Shown: piece by piece, positions 3,447 to 61,702 of the stretch
Numbering within the stretch: position 1 is the stretch's first letter
How the letters are laid out: each line of letters starts with the position of its first letter
Assembly (NCBI GenBank): GCA_964016885.1
Contig: OZ024747.1
Location: forward strand, 91,078,001-91,142,000
DNA length: 64,000 nt
From: Eledone cirrhosa
Lineage: Eukaryota
Direction of reading: 5' to 3'
Program-made: the position numbers and the translations under genes
The notes under the pieces: generated by a model
The model's database searches: none
Told to the model about the DNA's origin: nothing
What the model saw: the letters and a program-made list of their open reading frames with translations, nothing else

Positions 3447-4255
3447 TGGAGTTAGAAATAGAAGATAAATAGAAAATAAAGATGATGAGTGGAAGGAACG
3501 GGGAAAATGAGAAAAATAAATGGGAGAAAAAAAATATACATGTGCGTATTCAGTCGGCCATCTTGGAGATTCGTAAACTGCTTTTAATTATTTGTCTTCA
3601 ACTAATGTGTGTTAAAAAGTGTTTTGGTACATTTAAAGTTTTGTGCTTTCGAAGATTTGTCTACATAAGAAACATACTTACCTTCAAGTTGTCTTTGTAA
3701 TTTAGCAGATTTCACACTTTTATTAACTGTTTTGCTTTGCATTTGATATTGTTACTACAGGCGTTGATATTTGTTTGTGTCCTGCATAAATGGAAGTTCT
3801 ACAGCTTTGTATTTAGGCCTGCAAAAACCCAATACCTTACTTAAAGACAAATAGCATCAAACTTTAGAAGAGCCTATCACCCTCCCACTTCTATCCTTCT
3901 CATGTAACCCTAGTTCCATTGTCTTTCCCTTCAGTTCCTGTTTATAAATATTTGTAGTGTTATAATTAATCGGGTTGGACGATGTTCTTCATGCATATAT
4001 TGAAGTAAATCCACAACATTAAACATATACGCTATATTTCCTCTTTTTATGAACCAGATTGATCAGCTTCAATAGTTATACACATCATCTAGCTGTTCCC
4101 ATAAATGGAATTGGAGATATACAAAAGCGTGGAGAACTTAATATTGCTAACAAACATTTTATTGGACCGTTTGACACAACCAATAATACACCTTACTATA
4201 TAACAACTCAAAGCTCCTAATTCTGTTGAGCACTTAATGCTGTTAAGCAAGGAAT

Positions 4256-7011
4256 ATGATGGAGAAATTCTCGGTGAACTCTTCGCTCAAGGACATCCCT
4301 TTGCCTAGCATGAAAGAATTCACAAGGTTGGCCATAGGTAAATCGGACTCCTTTGTCCGTAGAATGCATTGGAAGGCCTTCCACTTCGACAGAGGAACAC
4401 CAACAAACCACCCCAGGGAGGAAACGCGCGGCATCGAGGGAAAATCCAAATACAGAAGAAACCCACCGCACAATAAGTACCTGAAGGAATTCGAGGCTGA
4501 AATGTCTAACATAGTGTCCAACCTTAAGTTTAGGAAAAACCTACTCAGGGGAAAAAGCTACTTAAGAAGACTGAACGGTGATCTAGGAAAACTAAGGAAC
4601 TCGACCGGCATTCTGGTGCACGCAGCTAAAACTAACAACCTGTACGATATGGATAGAGTAACCTATGACGACTTGATAATCAGAGAACTTAGAAAAAGCT
4701 ACAAAAAAACTACACGGGCCAACCTGTATTTAATCAACACGGAGGCCAATAGCGTCATGACTCAACTGGGTATTGAAGATAAAACCGAACCCTTCCATCC
4801 TAGAATTCCGAGGATTTTATTGAAAGATCACAAGTTAAACTTTGAATCATCAAGACCTGTCAGGCTGATAGCCCCTTTAAAGTCAGACATAGGAATCGTG
4901 AGTAAAAACATTCTTGATAAAATAATCACCACTCTAGTTAGGAGATCGAAGTTTAAATTATGGTCAGGAACTAGTGAGGTAATTAACTGGTTTGAGAAAT
5001 CGCAGAATAAGAATAGCACTAAGTTTAAACAGTTCGATATCTCTAACTACTACTCTTCGATCTCTCCAACTCTTCTAGGTAAGGCCCTAAACTTTGCTAG
5101 CTTACACACCGACCTTACATCTGAAGAAATTAACATTATTCTCCTAGCTAGGAAAACCTTAATTGAGTTCAACGGTGACTTGTGGACCAGGAAAGATTGA
5201 CCGGACAATTTCGACAACACGATGGGATCCACGGACTCGACCCAGGTGACTGATCTGGTGGGCCTTTACTTCCTCGACTGTCTCAGAGTGGAAATGCCTC
5301 ACTTGGGAGGTGGCGCTTACCGTGACGACGTTTTGTTTACGGTATCGTTCCATAATAATAGTATGGTAGAGAGGGTGAGGAAAAAACTAAGCAAATTTTT
5401 CAACAACATAGACCTAAGTATAGTATTTGAAGAAAACCTGAAGATAGTTAATTTTCTAGATGTTACACTTAACCTCAATTCAGGATTCTTCCAACCCTAC
5501 CACAAACCCAACGAAAATCTAAATTATGTCAACGTAAAATCGAACCATCCTAGAATAGTCACTAATGGTATTACCAAAAGCGTCTCTAGTAGAATTTCAG
5601 GACTATCTTCCAATGAAGAGACCTTTGATAGGATCTCGAATTACTATAATAGCGCCCTGGAACGCACGGGGCATAGCGAGGGAATCTCATTCAAACGTCC
5701 ATTAAATAGTAGTAGCAACATTGCCTGCGATAGCTTAGGCTAAAATAGTGACACATTATTTAACAGCAGGCGGGATGTGAGGGAAGATCAATATAGACTT
5801 CATGTTGTATTGCCTCCTAGTCCCAATGTCGATAAGGGAACCAATCACCCAGGTACAAACACGGGGTCTGAGCACCGTAATGCCAGCGGAAACTCTAATT
5901 GTAACCTTAATTGTAGAACTGATAAAACGACCGTTGAACGTAAAATGGAACGAGGGCCGAGTAGAGGAAATAGGAATAGATGTAGAAGGCGCATAGTGGA
6001 TATAACCCTGGCTATCGAGGGTAATCCCAATGGCTGCACCGCCCCGGAGACATGGGACGATTCCGAACACAATCGAGACACCCCAGAAAACCATCGACCC
6101 ACAGACAGTTTTCAGTTATAATAGACCAGTAGCTACTAGGGAGATAGATAACTCCAGTATAGATAGCAAGAACAAGAGGCATCGCACCAGAAAAATCCTG
6201 TGGTATAACCCCCCTTACTCCACTGGCCTAACCACTAGTATAGCTAAGCTTTTCTTTAGGGCCTTAGACAAAATGCTTCCCTAGATCACACAGATACTAT
6301 AAAATATTCAATAGGAATAACATTAAGCTGTCCTACTCCACAACCAGTAACATAGCTCAGAATATAGCTAAGATGAATTATAGTAGACTTAGGACAGCTC
6401 AAGGGGGGATAAGACATGGCAGAACTAATGGCAGCTCTATGGATTAACGGACTCATACACGTGAGGTGAGTCGGGTCACCCCAACTTCTGGGAACTTACC
6501 TATAGAGCAGAGAAGAACTGAGACCCGACCCTAGAGGTACCGTGGTTCCTCTGGAACTACCCAGGCCGATAGCAGAAAATGTAATTGCAGGAACACCGCC
6601 ACTTGTCCCTTGGCTGGGAAATGCCTCACCAAAAACATAGTCTACGACTGTAAGGTCTCCACTTTAGATAGAACCTTCAGATATGTTGGGTCAACTGCCA
6701 CTGAATTTAAGGATAGATGGTATAATCACCGCCATACCTTTAATAGATTAGATAAAAGAAATAGCACGGCGTTTTCTGAATTAGTCTGGAAGCTTAAACA
6801 ACAGAATATAGAGCACTTCTTATCCTGGTCCATAATTTGCTTAGCCCAGTCATATAACGGCAGCACTGGCGTTTGTAATTTGTGTATAGCTGAAACCTTT
6901 AATATTATTAGAGGCGCCCCCCTCCCCCTATTAATCAATAGGAGAGCAGACCTTTTCAGCAAATGCCAACATAGAACCTCGAAAACCTTCCGTAGGATTT
7001 TTGGAAAGTAA
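4256..7011 (+). pseudogene. PLE reverse transcriptase plus GIY-YIG endonuclease (Naiad-like), disrupted
   Basis: RT motifs QFDISNYYSSI, MGSTDS, AYRDD and FLDV. Linker RKILWYNPPY and CNCRN..CPLAGKC. Endonuclease NIVY..YVGST..FKDRWYNH..CNLC. In-frame TGA at 5198, TAA at 5741, further TAA/TAG stops and two frameshifts near 6050-6120 and 6280. Confidence 0.9.
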
Positions 7012-7043
7012 CCTACCATTAACTCCTCCCTCTCTACCTTAGC

Positions 7044-7495
7044 CGCAGAGTTCTCTCAATTAGCAAAAAGCAGACAATCACTCACTCAGGTAGTTAGACA
7101 GCGAAGATCGTTTGCTCACTTACAAACGGTACTCGGACTGTTTCCACAGAGTTCTCACAGCTGAGTGCACATTAGAATACTTAGTTAGTAAATAGTTAGA
7201 AAGATTACACACTCAGGTAAGACCGATTATGCGCATTCACCATTACTTTAGGATACCCTAACCACTGAGTTCTCTCGGTTGGGATATAGCTAGGCGTATT
7301 ACACACTCAGTTAAGACTAATTACGCTATCTATACATAACTCTACACACAATACCCGGTTTCTTTAGACACTGAGTTCCCACAGTTATTACTGGTCACGT
7401 TCCTATCGATTGAATACTACACTAGGTTTTGATCCGTGATCATCTAACCATGGAGTGCTCACGGTTACAGATTGGACAATAATACTTACACACCA
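7044..7495 (+). repeat. Diverged array of 80-120-bp units in the PLE 3' UTR
   Basis: Motif CACWGAGTTCYCWCRGTT at 7044, 7145, 7263, 7369 and 7449, with partner (TTACA)CACTCAGKT at 7083, 7205 and 7299. Confidence 0.6.
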
Positions 7496-8323
7496 TTAAT
7501 GGGCCTACACACATTCTCTGGGTTTTGCTATTATTTGTTATTTTATTTTGCATTTTGTGTTGGATAACACACCTCCACCACTCAAACACCTATCTTAAAA
7601 GCCCAAGGGCCCATATGACGGGAAATCGCACATACTGACACCTTAACCCAAGTACCCAACCCTACACAGAGCCCCTTGGTGGCCCACATAGCGGTTGCTT
7701 GCACGCACAGATTTGGGGACTCAGATTCTCAATGGGACAACGGCACATACTGAGTTCGATATGAGCTGACAACTTGCTCTTCGCAGGGATATGTATATAC
7801 CTAAACATACACTTTTTTGGACGATACGGATGTGTATATACCATAACATACACTATTTGGAGATACGGATGTTACAATTCAATCTATACACGTATAGCAG
7901 ATCATTGAACTGAACTTACACGCGTGTGTATAGGGCTGCGGTTGACCCAATTTTTCAAATTTGCATCGTCAAATTGAGATTTGACCAATATAACATTTGT
8001 TGTTTTGTAAACTAACTTTCGGTGAATACTATGTTGGTATATTTGTATTTTTCTTTTTTCTTTAACCTCGTGTCGGTGTGTGTGAGTGTGTGTGTGTACT
8101 CACTCACAATAACTGTGACGGACTGTAATTCTACAGATTTGATTGATGTCCAGCGTCTTTTACAGCTACTGGGAGATAGAGACTTGATAGTTTTATGACC
8201 CTAACTGAGGACGATACCAGTCGCCGTGTTCTGACTGCTTGATCTTCAAATGAGGGACTAAACTCTGTGAGTGAACACCGTTAATTTTCTCCCTCATATC
8301 AAGGATTTGAAGACAATTCATTT

Positions 8324-8397
8324 TCACCTGACGAGGTCAGTGATAATCGATCATGGCTACACGATCGATCTATCTCTTATTGAAACATGTGTCGTGA
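8324..8397 (+). ncRNA. Hammerhead ribozyme of the PLE pLTR
   Basis: TCAC-CTGACGA-G..ATCGATC..GATCGAT..T-GAAA-C-atgt-G-TC-GTGA, with palindromic ACATGT at stem III. Confidence 0.75.
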
Positions 8398-8575
8398 TTA
8401 AAATGATTGGAATTTATACCATGCTTTCGGATCTTTATTTTGATACAAATACTTCGTTTTACATCATCTAGCTGTTCCCATAAATGGAATTGGAGATATA
8501 CAAAAGCGTGAAGAACTTAATATTGCTAACAAAAATGTTATTGAAGCGTTTGACACAACCAATAATACACCTTAC

Positions 8576-8619
<44 letters not shown>

Positions 8620-24660: not shown

Positions 24661-26200
24661 TTGGGAGAGATTTGGCAGTGTTGTTAGAACGTGGGATAGA
24701 ATAGGCAGTGTCGTTAGAACGTGGGATAGAATTGGCAGTGTCGTTAGAACGTGGGATAGAATTAGCAGTGTTGTTAGAACGTGGGATAGAATTGGCAGTG
24801 TCGTTAGAACGTGGGAGAGATTTGGCAGTGTTGTTAGAACGTGGGATAGAATAGGCAGTGTTGTTAGAACGTGGGATAGAATAGGCAGTGTTGTTAGAAC
24901 GTGGGATAGAATTGTCAGTGTCGTTAGAACGTGGGATAGAATTGGCAGTGTTGTTAGAACGTGGGATAGAATTGTCAGTGTCGTTAGAACGTGGGATAGA
25001 ATTAGCAGTGTTGTTAGAACGTGGGATAGAATTGGAAGTGTCGTTAGAACGTGGGATAGAATTGGAAGTGTCGTTAGAACGTGGGATAGAATTGGCAGTG
25101 TCGTTAGAACGTGGGATAGAATTGGCAGTGTTGTTAGAACGTGGGATAGAATTGGCAGTGTTGTTAGAACGTGGGATAGAATTGTCAGTGTCGTTAGAAC
25201 GTGGGATAGAATTAGCAGTGTTGTTAGAACGTGGGATAGAATTGGCAGTGTCGTTAGAACGTGGGATAGAATTGGCAGTGTCGTTAGAACGTGGGATAGA
25301 ATTGGCAGTGTCGTTAGAACGTGGGATAGAATTGGCAGTGTCGTTAGAACGTGGGATAGAATTGTCAGTGTCGTTAGAACGTGGGATAGAATTAGCAGTG
25401 TTGTTAGAACGTGGGATAGAATTGGAAGTGTCGTTAGAACGTGGGATAGAATTGGAAGTGTCGTTAGAACGTGGGATAGAATTGGCAGTGTCGTTAGAAC
25501 GTGGGATAGAATTGTCAGTGTCGTTAGAACGTGGGATAGAATTGGCAGTGTTGTTAGAACGTGGGATAGAATTAGCAGTGTTGTTAGAACGTGGGATAGA
25601 ATTGTCAGTGTCGTTAGAACGTGGGATAGAATTGGCAGTGTTGTTAGAACGTGGGATAGAATTAGCAGTGTTGTTAGAACGTGGGATAGAATTGTCAGTG
25701 TCGTTAGAACGTGGGATAGAATTGTCAGTGTCGTTAGAACGTGGGATAGAATTGGAAGTGTCGTTAGAACGTGGGATAGAATTGGAAGTGTCGTTAGAAC
25801 GTGGGATAGAATTGGCAGTGTTGTTAGAACGTGGGATAGAATTGGCAGTGTTGTTAGAACGTGGGATAGAATTGGCAGTGTTGTTAGAACGTGGGATAGA
25901 ATAGGCAGTGTCGTTAGAATGTAGGATAGAATTAGCAGTGTTGTTAGAACGTGGGATAGAATTGGCAGAGTTGTTAGAACGTGGGATAGAATAGGCAGTG
26001 TTGTTAGAACGTGGGATAGAATAGGCAGTGTTGTTAGAACGTTGGATAGAATTGTCAGTGTCGTTAGAACGTGGGATAGAATTGGCAGAGTCGTTAGAAC
26101 GTGGGATAGAATAGGCAGTGTTGTTAGAACGTGGGATAGAATTGGCAGAGTCGTTAGAATGTCGGATAGAATTGGCAGAGTCGTTAGAATGTCGGATAGA
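24661..26200 (+). repeat. 30-bp minisatellite of about 51 units, derived from a SINE head
   Basis: Unit GTGGGATAGAATTGGCAGTGTCGTTAGAAC, running directly into a SINE B box and body at 26217-26297. Confidence 0.95.
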
Positions 26201-26746
26201 ACGCTTGATGGTATTCGTTCAAATCCCGCCGAGGCCAACTTTGCGTTTCATCCTTTCGAGGTCGATAAAAAAAGTACCAGTCTTGTCCTGGGTCGATCCT
26301 TTCTCTATATCTCTTTCTCATTTTCTTTCTCTCACTTTCTATCTCTCTTTCTCTGGAAGAAATCTGCTGTACCCAGTCCTGGAGAGGAATCGTCTCCGCT
26401 AGGCTTAAAATGCCCAACAAACACCGTATATCAATACGGTGCCCCTACGACTCTATCAGGAGTTATGGGACCATACTATATAAAGATAAATGATAACACA
26501 ATTCTAAAGAAATAAACTGTACATAAACCCATTCATTGCAATATAATGACATAGAAATCACAAGTAAACATATAGTCTTTCATGCACTTCATTTATATAA
26601 TATGCCTTTAAATCTAACTGCTTGCTTTACCCTAAATGATTTTGATATTATTTGTTTTTGTGTTTTAAACCACGCGAGGTTGTTAAACCTCATTTATAGC
26701 TTATTTATTGTCAAGGGAATTGTGGTGTTTGTTAGTGTAAATAGAC

Positions 26747-33999: not shown

Positions 34000-34628
34000 G
34001 TCAGGTCACCAGTTGGTGCTACTGGTAACATGTATCCCAGTACAACCTGTCTCATGGTCGGGTCGTTGGCGACTAAACTGGCAAACACACCAAGGTTTCT
34101 TGGTGAGGAGGGGGACTTTGGACATCCTGCAGGACTAAAAACAAAACCTGTCAAAGGGCAAAGGAACTCTTAAGAGGAACTCTTAAGAGTCAATGGCCAT
34201 CCAAAATCACCGGGAGAGATGACCCCTTAGCCTTTGTCAAGGCAGAATTCTAGGAGAAGGAAAACTCTGATATAACACCTGCAACCCTAATGGTATCCAA
34301 TGATGTTGACTTGTTCTTCTTTTTGGTAAATATCATCTTGGTTAAGAGAGTGGGACTGGCTTTGTGCAGTGCCTTTGCTTACTATAAAAGCTTCACGGCA
34401 CAAGCATTGCTTATATATCTGGAGATCTCTCTGCACTTGTCGTCACATGGTACCATGGGCCCAGCACTATGTGTCAATAATTGTCACAAATGTAGTGTTT
34501 GTACCAGAGTTTTCAAGTCGCTGGCTGGACTAAAAAGTCACACTCGTTCAGCGCATCGGTAGGGGTTCTCCTACATCTACATGGATATAAAGTAGTGGCC
34601 GTACTCGAAAACGAGTTGGCAGCCACCA
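34000..34628 (+). mobile_element. RTE-derived non-autonomous element, second full copy
   Basis: Matches 17164-17771. It carries the remnant frame [22 protein letters not shown]. Confidence 0.7.
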
Positions 34629-34630
34629 AG

Positions 34631-34738
<108 letters not shown>

Positions 34739-34741
34739 TAT

Positions 34742-35217
34742 ACATCAAGCTTGTTACATACACTTTCCGTACTCTTCCATGTCTCACGGGCATATATCGC
34801 TGTTGGTACTACAATGGACATGTAAACACGGAATCTGACGGCGTTGCCGATGGAACACCTGGACCATACCATCGTTGCATTCGGACCATATTGAAAATTT
34901 CATGGAGAGACCAAGTTAGCAACGAGGAAGTGATGAGGAGGTCAGGATTGGAGAGGTTAAGGGACATTGTCCGGAAAAGGAGACGGTGGTTCGCGGGCCA
35001 TATCGTTCGTTTGCCGGCAGATCGACCTGCTCATATTGCCATGGATTGGGTACCAGAAGGTGGCAGGAGAGTACGGGGAAGACTACAAAAAACATGGCGG
35101 ACCTGCGGGAGATGGGAATTACCTGAAAAGGTGCTAGGAGGGCCGCCAGTGACAGGATTAAGTGGAGAAAGCTCGTCGCCCAATGTTCAACAAGGGACTG
35201 AAGGAACTAAGACTAAG

Positions 35218-35221
<4 letters not shown>
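34742..35221 (+). mobile_element. RTE-clade LINE 3' end with 5' inversion, inside (TA)n
   Basis: Plus strand: [45 protein letters not shown] with tail CTAAGACTAAGTCTAA. Minus strand: [20 protein letters not shown]. Confidence 0.85.
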
Positions 35222-35283
<62 letters not shown>

Positions 35284-35295
35284 TGAACTCCTACG

Positions 35296-38260: not shown

Positions 38261-38450
38261 ATAATAATAAATTTGAAGACTAAAATCCAAAGAGGGCTCG
38301 ATAAGGATAAATATATATCAAATATATAAGAACCGTAGAGCAAATATTTATTAAAAGCAGCGATTCTTTGCTTAAACTTTAATCTGTTATTTTAATAAAT
38401 ATAAATATATATATATATATAAATATATAAATATATATAAATATATATAA

Positions 38451-38780
<330 letters not shown>

Positions 38781-49552: not shown

Positions 49553-50137
49553 CAGTGGCGGACTGGACAGGTTGCCAGGTTGCCCAATGGCAAGTGGGCC
49601 CCAGGCCGCCTACGGTAACATTGCAAGTGCCCACGGTAGCCTTGCAGGGCCCACTGTAGTATTTTAGGGGCCAATGCTTTGCTTTAAAAAAATACCTGAA
49701 ATCTAAGAGAAAGAATAAAAAGTAAATAAAAAGTAATTAAAACAATTAAGCAAAGCATTTGGTCAACCAATTCCCCAGGGAATTACAAGAAACCAAAATA
49801 TACGATAGTGCAAATAGCTGGAATCAGTGGTTGTAAATTCTACTAAATCTAAAGTCTAGTGTATTCATTCATGCATGCAAACATACATATATAGAGACAG
49901 ACACATATTAATATCCAATTGAGTTCTTAAACACGTGGTTAAAATACCTAACAGGCTTCAATGACCAGCGTGTATATTATTTTATATTTTACGATGACCT
50001 CCCCTTTCCCTTTTGGGGACAGTATGAATTTTCTTTTTGAAGGACTACTGGCTTTTCAAATTTAGCTGTCCTTCTAGCACTGACGGAGACCATCACTAAT
50101 TATCAATATCGATGTAGTTTTTTATATCGATATTGCA

Positions 50138-50266
50138 TGGGCATCCACTGATGAGTTATAAGGGCCCGCTTCTGTGTATATCTATGGATTATATACAAGT
50201 TTCTACATAACCTGGACATTATTTATCCCAACTTGTAGAAATCTTATAACGAAACGATCGTATGGA
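50138..50266 (+). ncRNA. Hammerhead ribozyme with expanded stem II
   Basis: TCCA-CTGATGA-GTTATAAG-(80 nt)-CTTATAAC-GAAA-C-gatc-G-TA-TGGA. Confidence 0.88.
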
Positions 50267-50574
50267 AGAAAAGAGAGATTTATTTAATTATGTCTCATAT
50301 AAAATAATACAACCAACTTTCTACGGAATACTGTGTAGTTAGCACTCCAAACACTAAATTGGGATTAAACGATATGATTAATGTTAGATTAAGGGTTCTA
50401 TATAAATATATAAACATATAGACTGTTAATATGATTTCTTGATGAATATGCATATCATTTGATTGTGTAAGTACATTTAATTTGGTCGGGAATTTTGTAT
50501 TTTTTAAAATATATAGCTTATATGGTTAACAGTTACAAGGAACCGTAAACCATTCATGTATTTATTCATTTGGA

Positions 50575-51600: not shown

Positions 51601-52661
51601 AAATATGATAGTATACTTTAATATAAATACTTATAAATTTGTTTAGCCTGAAATATTATACCTTTAGATTAATTCATTATTCTGAACTAACATAAATTAT
51701 TCGAAATTTAACGGTCATCCGGATACGTTTGGATATATATAATTGATTAATAGTATATTTCTAATTAACTTAAGGACTCGAAATTAAACCCTCATATAAT
51801 TACACCCAGATATATTTAATATTTAGATTGATTGATTATTTCTAGATAATTCAAAGATTCGAAATTACTCTTGCGCAAATGTATATTTATGTATTTATAT
51901 ATATATATATTTTTGCATCATCTAATTATACGCTATTTATCCACGACAATACAAATCTCCCTCCCTATGCTTTATACTATAAAAATTATTCCTCCTTGTC
52001 TCTCTATCCTTGATCAATTCTCTTTTGCTTTCTATACTTCTAGTAACTATCTTTTTCCTCATCTGTTTCTCTCTATCTTTCTCCTTTCTTCAATAATTTA
52101 AATTATTTGAATCTCTAACAGTTATGTAAATTGCTATTATGTATTTTTAAGCTTTCTCACATGCACCCTCTGTATTATATGTAATTTGTTCATGTCTCAA
52201 TCTTAAGGTATATAAATATTGAGTTTTGTCATATCTTATTCACTACCATGACTGAATCTTAACCATCTACTAAGTCAGGGTATGTCATGCATCATCTTAT
52301 TTTATCTGATGAGGACGTACTGTTGAAGATTCATACTTATAAACCTACTTTCAATATTTTGAATTAATATATATATATATAGAGAGAGAGAGATAGGTAG
52401 ATAGATATAGGTACACGCACACACACATATATATTGAATGAGTGTTAAAGACCAAAGGTCATTATTGAAAGTCTCTGGATTTCACAAAATACATATTTTT
52501 TTATTGGAGAAGGTAAGATATCTTTCAGCAAAGATTTGATTTGTTTCCACTTATGTATTTTTGGAAAATGTTATTTATTTATTTAAAAAATTAAATGATA
52601 GCATTCTATATGTAGGTGGGTCCCCTTCCACTGGCACCCAATACTTTTAGACCTAGTCCGC

Positions 52662-52695
<34 letters not shown>

Positions 52696-53088
52696 CCATT
52701 TGCCCTTTATAGCATAACTTTCTGCATTTACTGCGGTTATGAGAAGCGGTTCTTATTCGGGTACAACTTCTGATTTAGCCTAAGAAAATATCTATATGCG
52801 TGTGTAATTTATACAAGCATATATTTATTTTTTTAATTTTCAATTGAGTTCTTAAACACGTTGGATTGATAATGTTTTCAAAAAAACTAATTTTCCCGCG
52901 TGTATATTATTATTTTTTTCCTCATTTCGTGGGTTGTCTCCCCTTCCCGCTTCGTGTCGCTATGATACTTCCTCAGTCAAAAACTGCTGGAATTTCAAAT
53001 TTAGCGGTCATTCGAGGTGAGAGAGACCAACTTTACGGACATGATTTTTGACAGCGGTAAGAAATTGTTTTCTTATATCAATGTTTAA

Positions 53089-53219
53089 TGGGCTTCCACT
53101 GACGATTTATAAGTGCCCACCTAAATATATTCTTACATGAATATATATTAGGCTTCTACATAAACAGGAAACATTCTCCCAAACTTGTAGAAAACTTATA
53201 ATGAAACAATTGTTTGGAA
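53089..53219 (+). ncRNA. Hammerhead ribozyme with expanded stem II
   Basis: TTCCA-CTGACGA-TTTATAAG...CTTATAAT-GAAA-C-aatt-G-TT-TGGAA. Confidence 0.78.
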
Positions 53220-53789
53220 AGAGAGATATACTTTAACTTTAATTATATCTCCTAAAATAATACAACTGGTTTTTCCACATTATACATATTGTTAGCACCC
53301 CAAACACTTAAATTGGGTTTATATTTTAATATAACCTAATGTTTGTTGAGTGAGATGGTTACAAGTCAGAGTTTAGCTTTAAACTATCTCTGTTATTGTA
53401 TTAATTATATATATATATATATCATTGGAAGTTTGAATCTAACTGACATGCAAAAACACATATATAGGAATAAGGTAGGGCCAAATTATAGTAGATTCAA
53501 ATATCACTGAGAGAGAGAGAGAGTGAGAGGGGGTGGGAGGATAGGGCGGAGGGCGGAGGGCGAGAAATGAGGTGCAACAGAAATGAAACATGGATTACAG
53601 GTTAAAATATAGTCTAGATAGATGAGAAACAAAACGGGGATGTAGTTATGGAACACCCAAATGATTTAGAAGTCGACCTTAAGTAGGAGCAATAACATTA
53701 AGAAAGACATGGACGACGCCGCAACACTTTGTTTTAAAAATATTAAAAGTAGGTTTATATGTATGAATTTTCATAAAATTTTTGTAGTT

Positions 53790-56492: not shown

Positions 56493-56787
56493 TTATAAAC
56501 ACACATACACATTTATACTTATATTGTACATAAGTGTGCACGTCTAGATAGACCTTTATATTAGCTTTAAAATTCTAATCCTTCTTGAGGCATGGATTAA
56601 GATTAAAACTAAATTTGCTGAATACTCTCACCACACAAATACCTAAGTCCGCAGAACAGAAAATATAAATACAAAGAAACACATTCAGACGCTAACACAA
56701 ACACACATAATAACATATTTTTTCTTTTAACAATTTCTAGTTTATCAGTCACATTTTCTGAAATATCAATGCTATTTCATGATACTC

Positions 56788-56844
<57 letters not shown>

Positions 56845-56850
<6 letters not shown>

Positions 56851-57147
56851 TGAGGATGAAAAACTCAGAGCTGTATGGGAGCATCCCAAAAGTCAGCTCA
56901 AAAGTGACACAGAGGAGACTGAGGTTGGCTGGACATGCTCACCGACATCCAGAGTTGACATTGCACTCAGTGCTCCTTTGGGAGTCCCTACATGGACACA
57001 CTAGAAGAGGAAGACCAAGGTTAACATATGTTGATGCCCTAAGGACAGACACTGGTCTGTTGGAGATGCAGGATATGGCAGCGATAATGAGGGACAGAGA
57101 CCGCTGGAGAGAACTCGTCCATGGATCTCGGGAATTTTACCCGCCTT

Positions 57148-57148
<1 letters not shown>
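56845..57148 (+). mobile_element. RTE-like LINE 3' end inside (TA)n
   Basis: NSELYG..KVTQRRLRLAGHAHRHPE..LLWE..HGHTRRGRPRLTYVD..DRDRWR. A second copy lies at 61296-61595. Confidence 0.85.
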
Positions 57149-57211
<63 letters not shown>

Positions 57212-57240
57212 GGTCAAAAGATGGTTAAATGAGTTCCATG

Positions 57241-57311
57241 TATTTTATTATGCGCATTTCAAAAACAAATATCATCATGCAATAACATTTGTGTTTTCAT
57301 CAGATAAAATA
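57241..57311 (-). ncRNA. Hammerhead ribozyme (40/57 kb family)
   Basis: Same frame as 40075. Stem II substitutions keep pairing through G-U or A-U (ACAAATGTTATT/GATGATATTTGT). Confidence 0.8.
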
Positions 57312-57394
57312 GGAGGACATGATATGAAGGTTAAAAAACACTTGTGGATAGTGCAGTTTTAAATCAACATTGTACTACAATAAAACTCACCTCC

Positions 57395-57429
<35 letters not shown>

Positions 57430-58042
57430 CGGAGGAGTTGTGGTAAGGAACCAGATGGACCATAACGCACCAGAGTACTCAATACTTAGGGTAGTAGAGT
57501 GGGTAATAGGAGAAAGTGTCTACCCCGAGGCGACCATCGAGCCTCTTTTGCCTCAGTACCTACAACCCAGTAACTTAAGAGATACCATTCGCCGATTACG
57601 CTATACTAACTATTCATAGCAGCTGTGTTAGACCCCAGATATGTGGTATTAATATATATATATAATATATATATATATATAGGTTTTTTACAAAATGAAA
57701 AATAACCGAAGTGTCCTACAAAAGTAGAGTTGAGATGGAGGGTCTGTGGTTTTTCACAGATCCTCCATCTCAACTCTACTTTTGAAAAGCAGAAGAACTG
57801 CGAAACCGGTAAAGGAACCAAAGAAATATATATATTTAAAAAAAAATAAGACTCCAGTTGCATTTTCGATTTCATCTTTTTTTCTTTATACTTTCACTCG
57901 TGTAGGACACTTCGGTTATTTTTCATTTTGTAAAAAAACCTCACTTTCTTATATATATATAACCTGACAGATACCTCAGGCACAGAAGATGATGATTATC
58001 GCTAAATACTGATGTTGGTTAGATTATCAATATTAGTATTAT

Positions 58043-58176
58043 TGGGGCACCCACTGATGAATTATAGGAGCCCACTTGAATATATATCTATTGATGGTAT
58101 ACAAGCTCCTACATAAATTGGTATAATTTCACCCAAATTGTAGGAATCCTATAATGAAACGAGACGTCCGTCTGGG
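58043..58176 (+). ncRNA. Hammerhead ribozyme with expanded stem II
   Basis: CCCA-CTGATGA-ATTATAGGA...TCCTATAAT-GAAA-CG-agacgtc-CG-TC-TGGG. Confidence 0.85.
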
Positions 58177-58748
58177 AAGAGATATATTAGATATGTCTCA
58201 TATGAAATAATACAGCCAATTTTCCACGCAATACTTTTAGTTAGCACCCCGAACGCATAATTGGGAATGTAATCACTTATTTCCTAATGTTTGTTGAGTG
58301 AGTTGGAATTTGGCCGGAGTATCGCTAAAAAGCTTTCTCCGATATTGTATTTATTTATTTACTCTTGGAGCAACAGATTCGAAAAAATTCCCGGTATAAG
58401 GTTAGCATTTCATTGTTTATTTTTTACATATGAATATTGATTGTTCCTTATATCTAATTCTGTTATTTTGCCCGAGAAAATATCTGTGTGTCATCAAATG
58501 TTGTACACAGATGGATATTTTTTCAATTTCCAATTGAGTTCTTAGCACGTGGCCTGAATTCCTTTCAGAATTCATTGTCATGCGCATGTATTGTTTTTTT
58601 TGGTGGTAATTTACTTCCTCAATTTTTGAATCAGTTTGAGCACTTCTTTAAAACTGCTGGACTGGCAACCTGACAGATACCTCAGGCACAGAGGATGATG
58701 ATTATCGCTAAATACTGATGTTGGTTAGATTATCAATATTAGTATTAT

Positions 58749-58882
58749 TGGGGCACCCACTGATGAATTATAGGAGCCCACTTGAATATATATCTATTGA
58801 TGATATACAAGCTCCTACATAAATTGGTATAATTTCACCCAAATTGTAGGAATCCTATAATGAAATGAGACGTCCGTCTGGG
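58749..58882 (+). ncRNA. Hammerhead ribozyme with expanded stem II (tandem partner)
   Basis: As at 58043, with C-to-T in stem III leaving a U-G pair. Confidence 0.82.
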
Positions 58883-59060
58883 AAGAGATATATTAGATAT
58901 GTCTCATATGAAATAATACAGCCAATTTTCCACGCAATACTTTTAGTTAGCACCCCGAACACATAATTGGGAATATAATCACTTATTTCCTAATGTTTGT
59001 TGAGTGAGTTGGAATTTGGCCGGAGTATCGCTAAAAAGCTTTCTCCGATATTGTATTTAT

Positions 59061-59140
<80 letters not shown>

Positions 59141-61295: not shown

Positions 61296-61297
<2 letters not shown>

Positions 61298-61595
61298 GCT
61301 GGGGATGGCTCTGAACATTAATCAGTATACACTGAGGATGAAGAACTCAGAGTTGTACAGGAGCCTCCCAAAAGTCAGCTCGAAAGTAGTACAGAGGAGA
61401 CTGAAGTTAGCTGGACATGCTCACCGACTTCCAGAGTTGACACTGCACTCAGTGGTCCTGTGGGAGACCCTGCACGGACACACTGGAAGCGGGAGACCGA
61501 GGTTGACTTATGTTGATGCCTTAAGAACAGACACCGGTCTTTGGGAGACACAGGACATGGCAGCGGTGATGAGGGACAGAGACCACTGGAGAAAC
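61296..61595 (+). mobile_element. RTE-like LINE 3' fragment, paralog of 56845
   Basis: ORF track translation RRLKLAGHAHR..GRPRLTYVD. Confidence 0.8.
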
Positions 61596-61702
61596 AGGGA
61601 GCTGTGTGGTTACTTGATAAAGTGTATTTAAAAATAAAAGGTAAGCACAAGTGGGGGATAATCCCTTCTTCAGTTGTCTGCAACCACCACCACGACACTC
61701 AG

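What the first reader, a model, noticed from the sequence alone, without database searches (positions are those of the whole stretch)
57961..59062. 706-nt ribozyme-delimited unit: candidate retrozyme circRNA
Seen: near-identical direct repeats of about 395 bp, each with an HHR, with predicted cuts after 58172 and 58878 (706 nt apart). The unit has no convincing ORF and sits in (TA)n. The marker CAATTGAGTTCTTA..CACGT also occurs near 49917 and 52841, so diverged subfamilies exist. Inference: a read-through transcript would release a 706-nt monomer able to circularise, and the 1.5-mer genomic layout is what reverse transcription around a circle would leave.
Basis: partly seen in the sequence, partly recalled or inferred. 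Interest (0 to 1): 0.75.

Follow-up and report, generated by a model that had tools for sequence, protein, structure and literature searches.

The report
Penelope-driven retrozyme with oversized hammerhead
This is one of more than a thousand copies of a non-coding 706-base repeat that carries a predicted self-cutting RNA fold; its copies share one fixed end in TA repeats and are likely pasted in by a borrowed Penelope retrotransposon enzyme, partly from cut RNA and likely mostly from one RNA unit read more than once, probably a circle.

Summary
Observation confirmed: two 395-bp repeats (98.7% identical), 706 nt apart, each with a type I hammerhead whose stem II is a 95-nt branched arm; compensatory changes across three subfamilies support the fold, which Rfam misses. 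The unit is no local deletion product: its end 20-mer occurs 1049 times genome-wide. Copies have one fixed 3' end in (TA)n, 183 nt past the cut, and scattered 5' ends (under 0.1 to 4.75 units), the footprint of Penelope-like (PLE) insertion; intact Hydra-type PLEs are abundant and share an RCTC mark at their ends. So the 1.5-mer is one point of a continuum, not itself proof of a circle. Two genomic tests go further: 5' ends pile up at the cut (11 of 88 passes, 3.3 expected), and units within one insertion share derived alleles (205 versus 38 permuted), pointing to cleavage in vivo and re-reading of one monomer. DNA-level duplication also occurs, no RNA data exist, and the exact partner was not found. 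Known kind (animal non-LTR retrozyme), unusual variant. The scan found this kind before in other families of this genome.

The parts
57950..57960 (.). (TA)n target, left flank
57961..58355 (+). 5'-truncated upstream partial unit (first repeat); its 5' end is a random truncation point
58050..58176 (+). type I hammerhead fold 1: stem I 58050-53/58173-76, CTGATGA 58054-60, stem II 58061-68/58148-55 enclosing two inner hairpins, GAAA 58156-59, stem III with palindromic GACGTC, predicted cut after 58172
58173..58878 (+). predicted 706-nt cut-to-cut monomer; folds as a circle at z -6.8 against 60 shuffles
58354..58364 (+). internal, read-through copy of the family's fixed 3' end, followed by ACTC (58361-64), the mark shared with Hydra-type PLE ends; likely reverse-transcription start signal
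58356..58666 (+). single-copy middle part of the unit, non-coding, most variable region of the family
58531..58550 (+). conserved marker CAATTGAGTTCTTA..CACGT; function untested, no match to U6 or U2 upstream regions
58667..59061 (+). downstream repeat ending at the family's fixed 3' end
58756..58882 (+). hammerhead fold 2, with C>T at 58866 in stem III; predicted cut after 58878
59062..59110 (.). (TA)n target, right flank
52693..53407 (+). 5'-truncated copy of sister subfamily B (unit 1003-1016 nt), same hammerhead fold and end
49910..50367 (+). fragment of sister subfamily C (unit about 761-767 nt, shorter variants seen)
4247..8580 (+). broken Hydra-type PLE (RT and GIY-YIG pieces 4247-7011, hammerhead-like core at 8328, 3' end into (TA)n): example of the likely helper class, not shown to be the partner

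Best explanation
The 1.1-kb stretch is a 1.56-unit insertion of an abundant non-coding repeat family with a hammerhead fold, likely a non-autonomous Penelope-like element (animal non-LTR retrozyme) that is likely moved in trans by Hydra-clade PLE proteins. Shown: family size, fixed 3' end in (TA)n, scattered 5' ends, conserved fold, excess of 5' ends at the cut, allele sharing between units. Inferred: transcripts of copies with two ribozymes are cut into 706-nt monomers; a PLE endonuclease nicks (TA)n and its reverse transcriptase starts inside the RNA, 183 nt past the cut and 4-7 nt before ACTC; on linear cut RNA it stops at the cut, while on a re-joined (circular) monomer it reads through the junction and on round the unit until it falls off. 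Later unequal exchange modifies some multimers. About 0.85 for the PLE-driven retrozyme, about 0.6 for the circle as main template.
For: Family: 2377 first-look candidates, 40 scored, full units 93-97% identical; 1049 exact end 20-mers, control 0. Fixed end: 35 of 40 loci from the full-unit search end at unit position 702-706; 46 of 52 loci run into TA there. 5' ends scattered; 83 position-sampled loci have median 461 nt, 19 exceed one unit. Fold: 94% of cells paired, 8 of 37 pairs with changes on both sides in 10 sequences of three subfamilies; ribozyme and tail diverge 1.6-1.8% against 3.6% elsewhere. Cut footprint: 11 5' ends within -3..+16 of the cut in 88 passes, 3.3 expected, p 5e-4; three lie within 3 nt of the cut (L277, L229, L253); 8 of 24 copies with allele 553T against 3 of 50 with 553A, p 0.004. 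Read-through: 75 passes; 116 of 117 matched junctions without indel. Monomer re-use: shared derived alleles in 45 unit pairs 205 against 38 +- 9 permuted, 83 against 16 in 15 newly fetched pairs, 42 against 9 in 13 pairs of the position sample; 27 locus-private alleles in all overlapping units against about 0.5 by chance, in 22 of 47 loci, with no significant loss of differences around them (47 against 57, p 0.11). Helpers: intact PLE ORFs with RWK/RWR, DKT, CxCX5C motifs in three families (motifs from PMC8557442 section 11); RCTC 4-7 nt after all 6 autonomous ends and all 3 subfamily ends, background 0.3-0.5% per base.
Against: No cleavage assay or RNA evidence. Predicted pairing of stem III is near zero and stem I is lost in full context; the ribozyme region alone folds only at z -1.5. 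Six of the near-cut ends sit on an ATATAT microhomology, another cluster (5 of 21 passes at 92-111) has no cut, and the window was chosen after seeing the data. DNA-level duplication is evident in L193, L011 and L197 (units 0.5-0.8% apart), and L195 and L204 share 7 rare variants spread over unlike units, which a single monomer cannot give. The window's own two repeats differ at two sites (57987, 58097) where the alleles recur in other loci. No autonomous element with a homologous terminal repeat was found; the best end match, subfamily B to family D, was reached by 3 of 100 shuffles. No robust A>G editing signal.
Confidence: 0.62

Rival explanations
1. Same PLE-driven element, but templates are linear: uncut or partly cut read-through transcripts of tandem copies, with multimers made and homogenised at the DNA level by unequal exchange or conversion. 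No circle is needed.
For: In vitro, an anole PLE used unprocessed RNA and ribozyme mutants did not change insertion (PMC11167929). DNA-level duplication seen. L229 and L253 end at the upstream cut after reading through the downstream one. L195/L204 share a mixed pattern.
Against: Private alleles shared by both units in 22 of 47 loci without a significant local loss of differences; only 2 of 1035 locus pairs share more than two unit-specific variants; no run longer than three units among the first 100 end matches or two among 100 of 116 junction matches, so no master array is in view.
Confidence: 0.22
2. The reverse transcriptase jumps from the cut 5' end of a linear monomer to the cut 3' end of the same or another monomer, giving circle-like repeats without ligation.
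For: 5' ends at the cut in first and second rounds (183 and about 890 nt); would explain occasional mixed units.
Against: 116 of 117 junctions lack indels, whereas template jumps of non-LTR enzymes often add or lose bases (own knowledge).
Confidence: 0.1
3. The unit is a passive terminal fragment of an autonomous PLE, or a satellite spread by DNA mechanisms; the ribozyme is a passenger.
For: Li et al. propose local tandem amplification of PLE ends (bioRxiv 10.64898/2026.07.22.740005); autonomous PLEs here also carry long-armed hammerheads.
Against: Three subfamilies are homologous along the whole non-coding unit and close head to tail without an ORF; dispersed insertions with fixed 3' and variable 5' ends; compensatory changes.
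Confidence: 0.06

Closest known systems
Animal non-LTR retrozymes (Cervera and de la Pena 2020, PMC7229834, parts 2-4 of 6 read; Li, Clavereau and Pollet 2026, bioRxiv 10.64898/2026.07.22.740005, parts 1-3 of 5 read)
   Same: Non-coding head-to-tail units, each with a type I hammerhead with a palindromic stem III loop, low GC, predicted well-paired circle, coexistence with PLEs.
   Different: Unit 706 nt (sisters about 765 and 1005) against about 170-400 nt for the tested circles, though within the 51-972 bp range of Li et al.; stem II is a 95-nt branched arm; most copies are shorter than one unit; cleavage and circles are shown there, not here.
Hydra-clade Penelope-like elements (Craig et al. 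2021, PMC8557442; passages, section 11 and supplement hits seen)
   Same: (TA)n target, partial tandem layout, 5' truncation, hammerhead before the 3' end, RCTC just after the end.
   Different: No ORF; no homologous terminal repeat found in four autonomous families; the listed Hydra-1_oBim hammerhead has an 8-nt loop 2.
Anole Poseidon PLE (Frangieh et al. 2024, PMC11167929, parts 1-2 of 4 read)
   Same: Fixed genomic 3' end explained by internal start of reverse transcription; AT-rich target.
   Different: There two start sites and no sign that cut RNA is used; here one main end and an excess of 5' ends at the cut.
Non-autonomous Chlamys elements such as MRC1 (passage in PMC8557442)
   Same: Non-coding, often multicopy head-to-tail PLE dependants.
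   Different: They resemble their partners at the 3' end and mostly lack canonical hammerheads.

Membership tests
Animal non-LTR retrozyme | Type I hammerhead in each head-to-tail unit | tested here: met
   no Rfam model matches, the fold rests on core motifs and covariation
Animal non-LTR retrozyme | Non-coding, GC under 50% | tested here: met
   GC 0.34, longest ATG frame 56 aa
Animal non-LTR retrozyme | Dispersed multicopy family with tandem copies | tested here: met
Animal non-LTR retrozyme | Monomer of a few hundred bases | tested here: inconclusive
   706 nt: above the 150-450 bp of PMC7229834, inside the 51-972 bp of the 2026 preprint
Animal non-LTR retrozyme | Self-cleavage of the RNA | not testable with these tools
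   indirect only: 5' ends in excess at the predicted cut
Animal non-LTR retrozyme | Expressed circular monomer | not testable with these tools
   no RNA holder listed
Non-autonomous Penelope-like element | Fixed 3' end internal to the unit, variable 5' truncation, partial tandems | tested here: met
Non-autonomous Penelope-like element | (TA)n target as in Hydra clade | tested here: met
   46 of 52 at the 3' side, 40 of 52 at the 5' side
Non-autonomous Penelope-like element | Terminal sequence shared with an autonomous partner | tested here: inconclusive
   RCTC mark in 9 of 9 ends and a weak 33-nt match of subfamily B to family D; no homologous repeat found
Non-autonomous Penelope-like element | Optional tail (second end) and inverted 5' arm | tested here: not met
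   one main 3' end; an inverted piece of the same subfamily in 1 (L015) of the 27 loci; both features are optional in PLEs
Plant LTR retrozyme | Type III hammerhead in true LTRs with fixed ends | tested here: not met
   type I topology; 5' ends variable

The most novel reading that the evidence does not exclude
A lineage of 0.7-1.0-kb viroid-sized RNA circles with a three-way-junction hammerhead parasitises Hydra-clade Penelope enzymes, and its genomic copies record the whole cycle: ribozyme cutting in the germline (copies that start at the cut, with a subfamily-specific rate), exact re-joining, and a reverse transcriptase running more than once round one RNA molecule.
Probability: 0.45. Interest if true: 0.7.

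Novelty: new variant of a known kind. Interest (0 to 1): 0.45.

Why it matters
Retrozyme papers propose, but in the parts read do not show, that PLE enzymes copy circular monomers into the genome, and the one PLE studied in vitro did not need its ribozyme. This family gives countable genomic evidence on both points and names concrete reagents (a defined start site, intact Hydra-type ORFs in the same genome). The long branched stem II escapes Rfam, so such ribozymes are likely undercounted. The weight is limited because the class is known and the scan has noted sister cases in this genome many times.

Tried and rejected
Rfam scans: no hammerhead hit. RNA runs: no RNA holder listed; two contig runs of unrecorded kind were laid and tell nothing on expression. 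Early reading 'no 5' ends at the cut' came from best-hit samples that excluded such copies; overturned by the position sample. BLAST edges overcounted near-cut ends (13); stricter alignment gave 9 of 59, then 11 of 83. A-to-I scars: A>G 4 against T>C 0 in private shared alleles at first, 3 against 1 in the larger set; not supported. Marker as snRNA promoter: no match upstream of the 8 U6 and U2 loci scored out of 30 printed, nor in four PLE units. Partner searches by pattern: 0 hits and 4 hits whose shown matches run from an element end into (TA)n, not opened further. Pfam and PDB gave nothing for the PLE ORFs; the clade call rests on motifs compared by eye. The 3' end statistic was not taken from tail- or end-selected samples. 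Print searches that found no description of this family, of such a long stem II, or of cut-site footprints; subscription journals and the preprint's supplements were not visible and may hold it.

Full report
Observation. The two repeats, their spacing, both hammerhead cores, the cut positions, the lack of an ORF, the TA flanks and the marker at 49916 and 52841 are all present. Rfam does not see the ribozyme, likely because 95 nt lie between the two core halves.

The ribozyme. Stem I (4 bp), stem II (8-9 bp) opening into two inner hairpins, and a short stem III with a palindromic loop can be drawn in subfamilies A (this finding), B and C. On 10 sequences, 94% of cells pair and 8 of 37 pairs change on both sides, in stems I, II, III and both inner hairpins; slid controls give 32-44%. 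The sequences form only three lineages, so the shuffle counts are not probabilities. Palindromic stem III loops are typical of dimer-acting PLE hammerheads (PMC4209133 and PMC3088659, passages). Folding programs favour stems I and II in the isolated motif but not stem III, and lose stem I in full context, so activity is not shown. The cut-to-cut monomer folds far better than shuffles as a circle (z -6.8; B -4.0, C -5.8).

The family. The window lies in a 3.0-Gb genome; earlier notes call it octopus-like, which I did not test. The end 20-mer has 1049 exact matches and the read-through junction 116. B (1003-1016 nt) and C (about 765 nt) have 2633 and 3438 first-look candidates and align with A along the whole unit. 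So the unit is an old non-coding lineage, not a local deletion.

Ends. Of 40 loci from the full-unit search, 35 end at the same site, 183 nt past the cut, mostly into (TA)n. 5' ends are scattered. In all 83 loci behind the first 100 end matches on contig C1, the median length is 461 nt, 19 exceed one unit and 8 keep two ribozymes; the longest seen anywhere is 4.75 units. A fixed internal 3' end with random 5' truncation is what internal initiation by a PLE enzyme gives (PMC11167929). The window's 1.56 units are one draw from this distribution.

Does the ribozyme cut? In the 83-locus sample 11 5' ends fall within -3..+16 of the cut in 88 passes, against 3.3 expected (p 5e-4); L277, L229 and L253 begin within 3 nt of it, L277 exactly. 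The excess is concentrated in one subfamily (8 of 24 against 3 of 50), although all share the nearby ATATAT. Caveats: six ends use that microhomology, a second cluster exists away from the cut, and the window was chosen after the fact. The other 75 passes read through, and 116 of 117 matched junctions have no indel (the pattern sees only junctions with intact flanks).

Circle or line? If one monomer is read repeatedly, units of one insertion start identical. They share derived alleles 205 times against 38 +- 9 in permuted pairs, replicated in two further samples, and 27 alleles are private to one locus yet present in all its overlapping units (0.5 expected). Differences around those alleles are not significantly depleted, which argues against recent conversion. 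CpG and low-complexity columns were masked, duplicate loci dropped, and L193, L195 and L204 left out. Against: three multimers show DNA-level duplication, L195 and L204 share a mixed pattern that needs a longer template or ectopic exchange, and the window's own repeats differ at two recurrent sites. A monomer bottleneck is well supported; a covalent circle is its simplest, not its only, form.

The helper. A search with a homologue of the window's broken PLE gave 86,101 candidates and many intact 735-780-aa frames. Four families (H1, H2 in the window, H3, D) carry the Hydra-clade motifs named in PMC8557442 section 11 and end in (TA)n. None has a terminal repeat homologous to A. All six autonomous ends and the three subfamily ends are followed after 4-7 nt by RCTC, and D's first end resembles those of B, C and A over about 40 nt, weakly by a whole-unit test. 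A Hydra-type helper is likely; the exact one is open.

Comparison and verdict. It works like, and by every testable feature except size belongs to, the animal non-LTR retrozymes, which a 2026 preprint treats as non-autonomous PLEs. The variant features are the large unit and branched stem II; the added value is the genomic record of cutting and re-reading. Earlier notes of this scan describe the same kind, oversized hammerheads, end signals and cut footprints in other families of this genome; none matched this sequence. Interest 0.45.

Noticed in passing
window 57211-57397 (-), also cores at 52306 (+) and 40137 (-): Short type I hammerhead elements of other families between TA runs (e.g. core at 57303 with palindromic TGCGCA stem III); the fetched loci hold many more families with 12-106 nt between the cores.
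   Followed up: partly
window 57682-57949: Palindromic insertion directly left of the element, with long inverted arms; similar sequence near 38400-38700.
   Followed up: no
L157:2060-5851 (family D): Autonomous Hydra-type PLE, 3262-nt unit, two 3' ends 89 nt apart, no CTGANGA core in its terminal repeat; a CAGAAGA...GAAA remnant sits just before the first end.
   Followed up: partly
L131 (family H3) and L076: Hammerheads with long stem II (roughly 85 and 106 nt between cores) in an autonomous PLE and a likely PLE end, so the long arm is not confined to non-coding families.
   Followed up: partly
L047, L029, L004: Ribozyme-damaging changes (GAAA to GAGA; stem II; stem I) present in both units of a single insertion, as if they arose after cutting or were tolerated.
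   Followed up: no
L195 and L204 (contig C3, 0.5 Mb apart): Independent insertions sharing seven rare variants in permuted unit order; possible heterodimer template or ectopic exchange.
   Followed up: partly
subfamily C tail (L088): A short frame MELVRVSLK... just before the fixed end faintly recalls Hydra ORF starts (ME...SLKDIP); not kept in B.
   Followed up: no
window 24662-26201: 30-bp minisatellite, 51 copies, 94% matches, strong G skew.
   Followed up: no
window 34591-35286, 56622-57149, 61296-61631: Frames resembling LINE (RTE-type) C-terminal fragments (recalled label; Pfam gave nothing for the two tested).
   Followed up: no
G000 C19:31.78-31.84 Mb and C3:307.35-307.45 Mb: Tandem arrays of U6 (about 1.8-kb unit) and U2 (about 2.2-kb unit) genes; in some U6 units another repeat replaces the upstream octamer region.
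   Followed up: no
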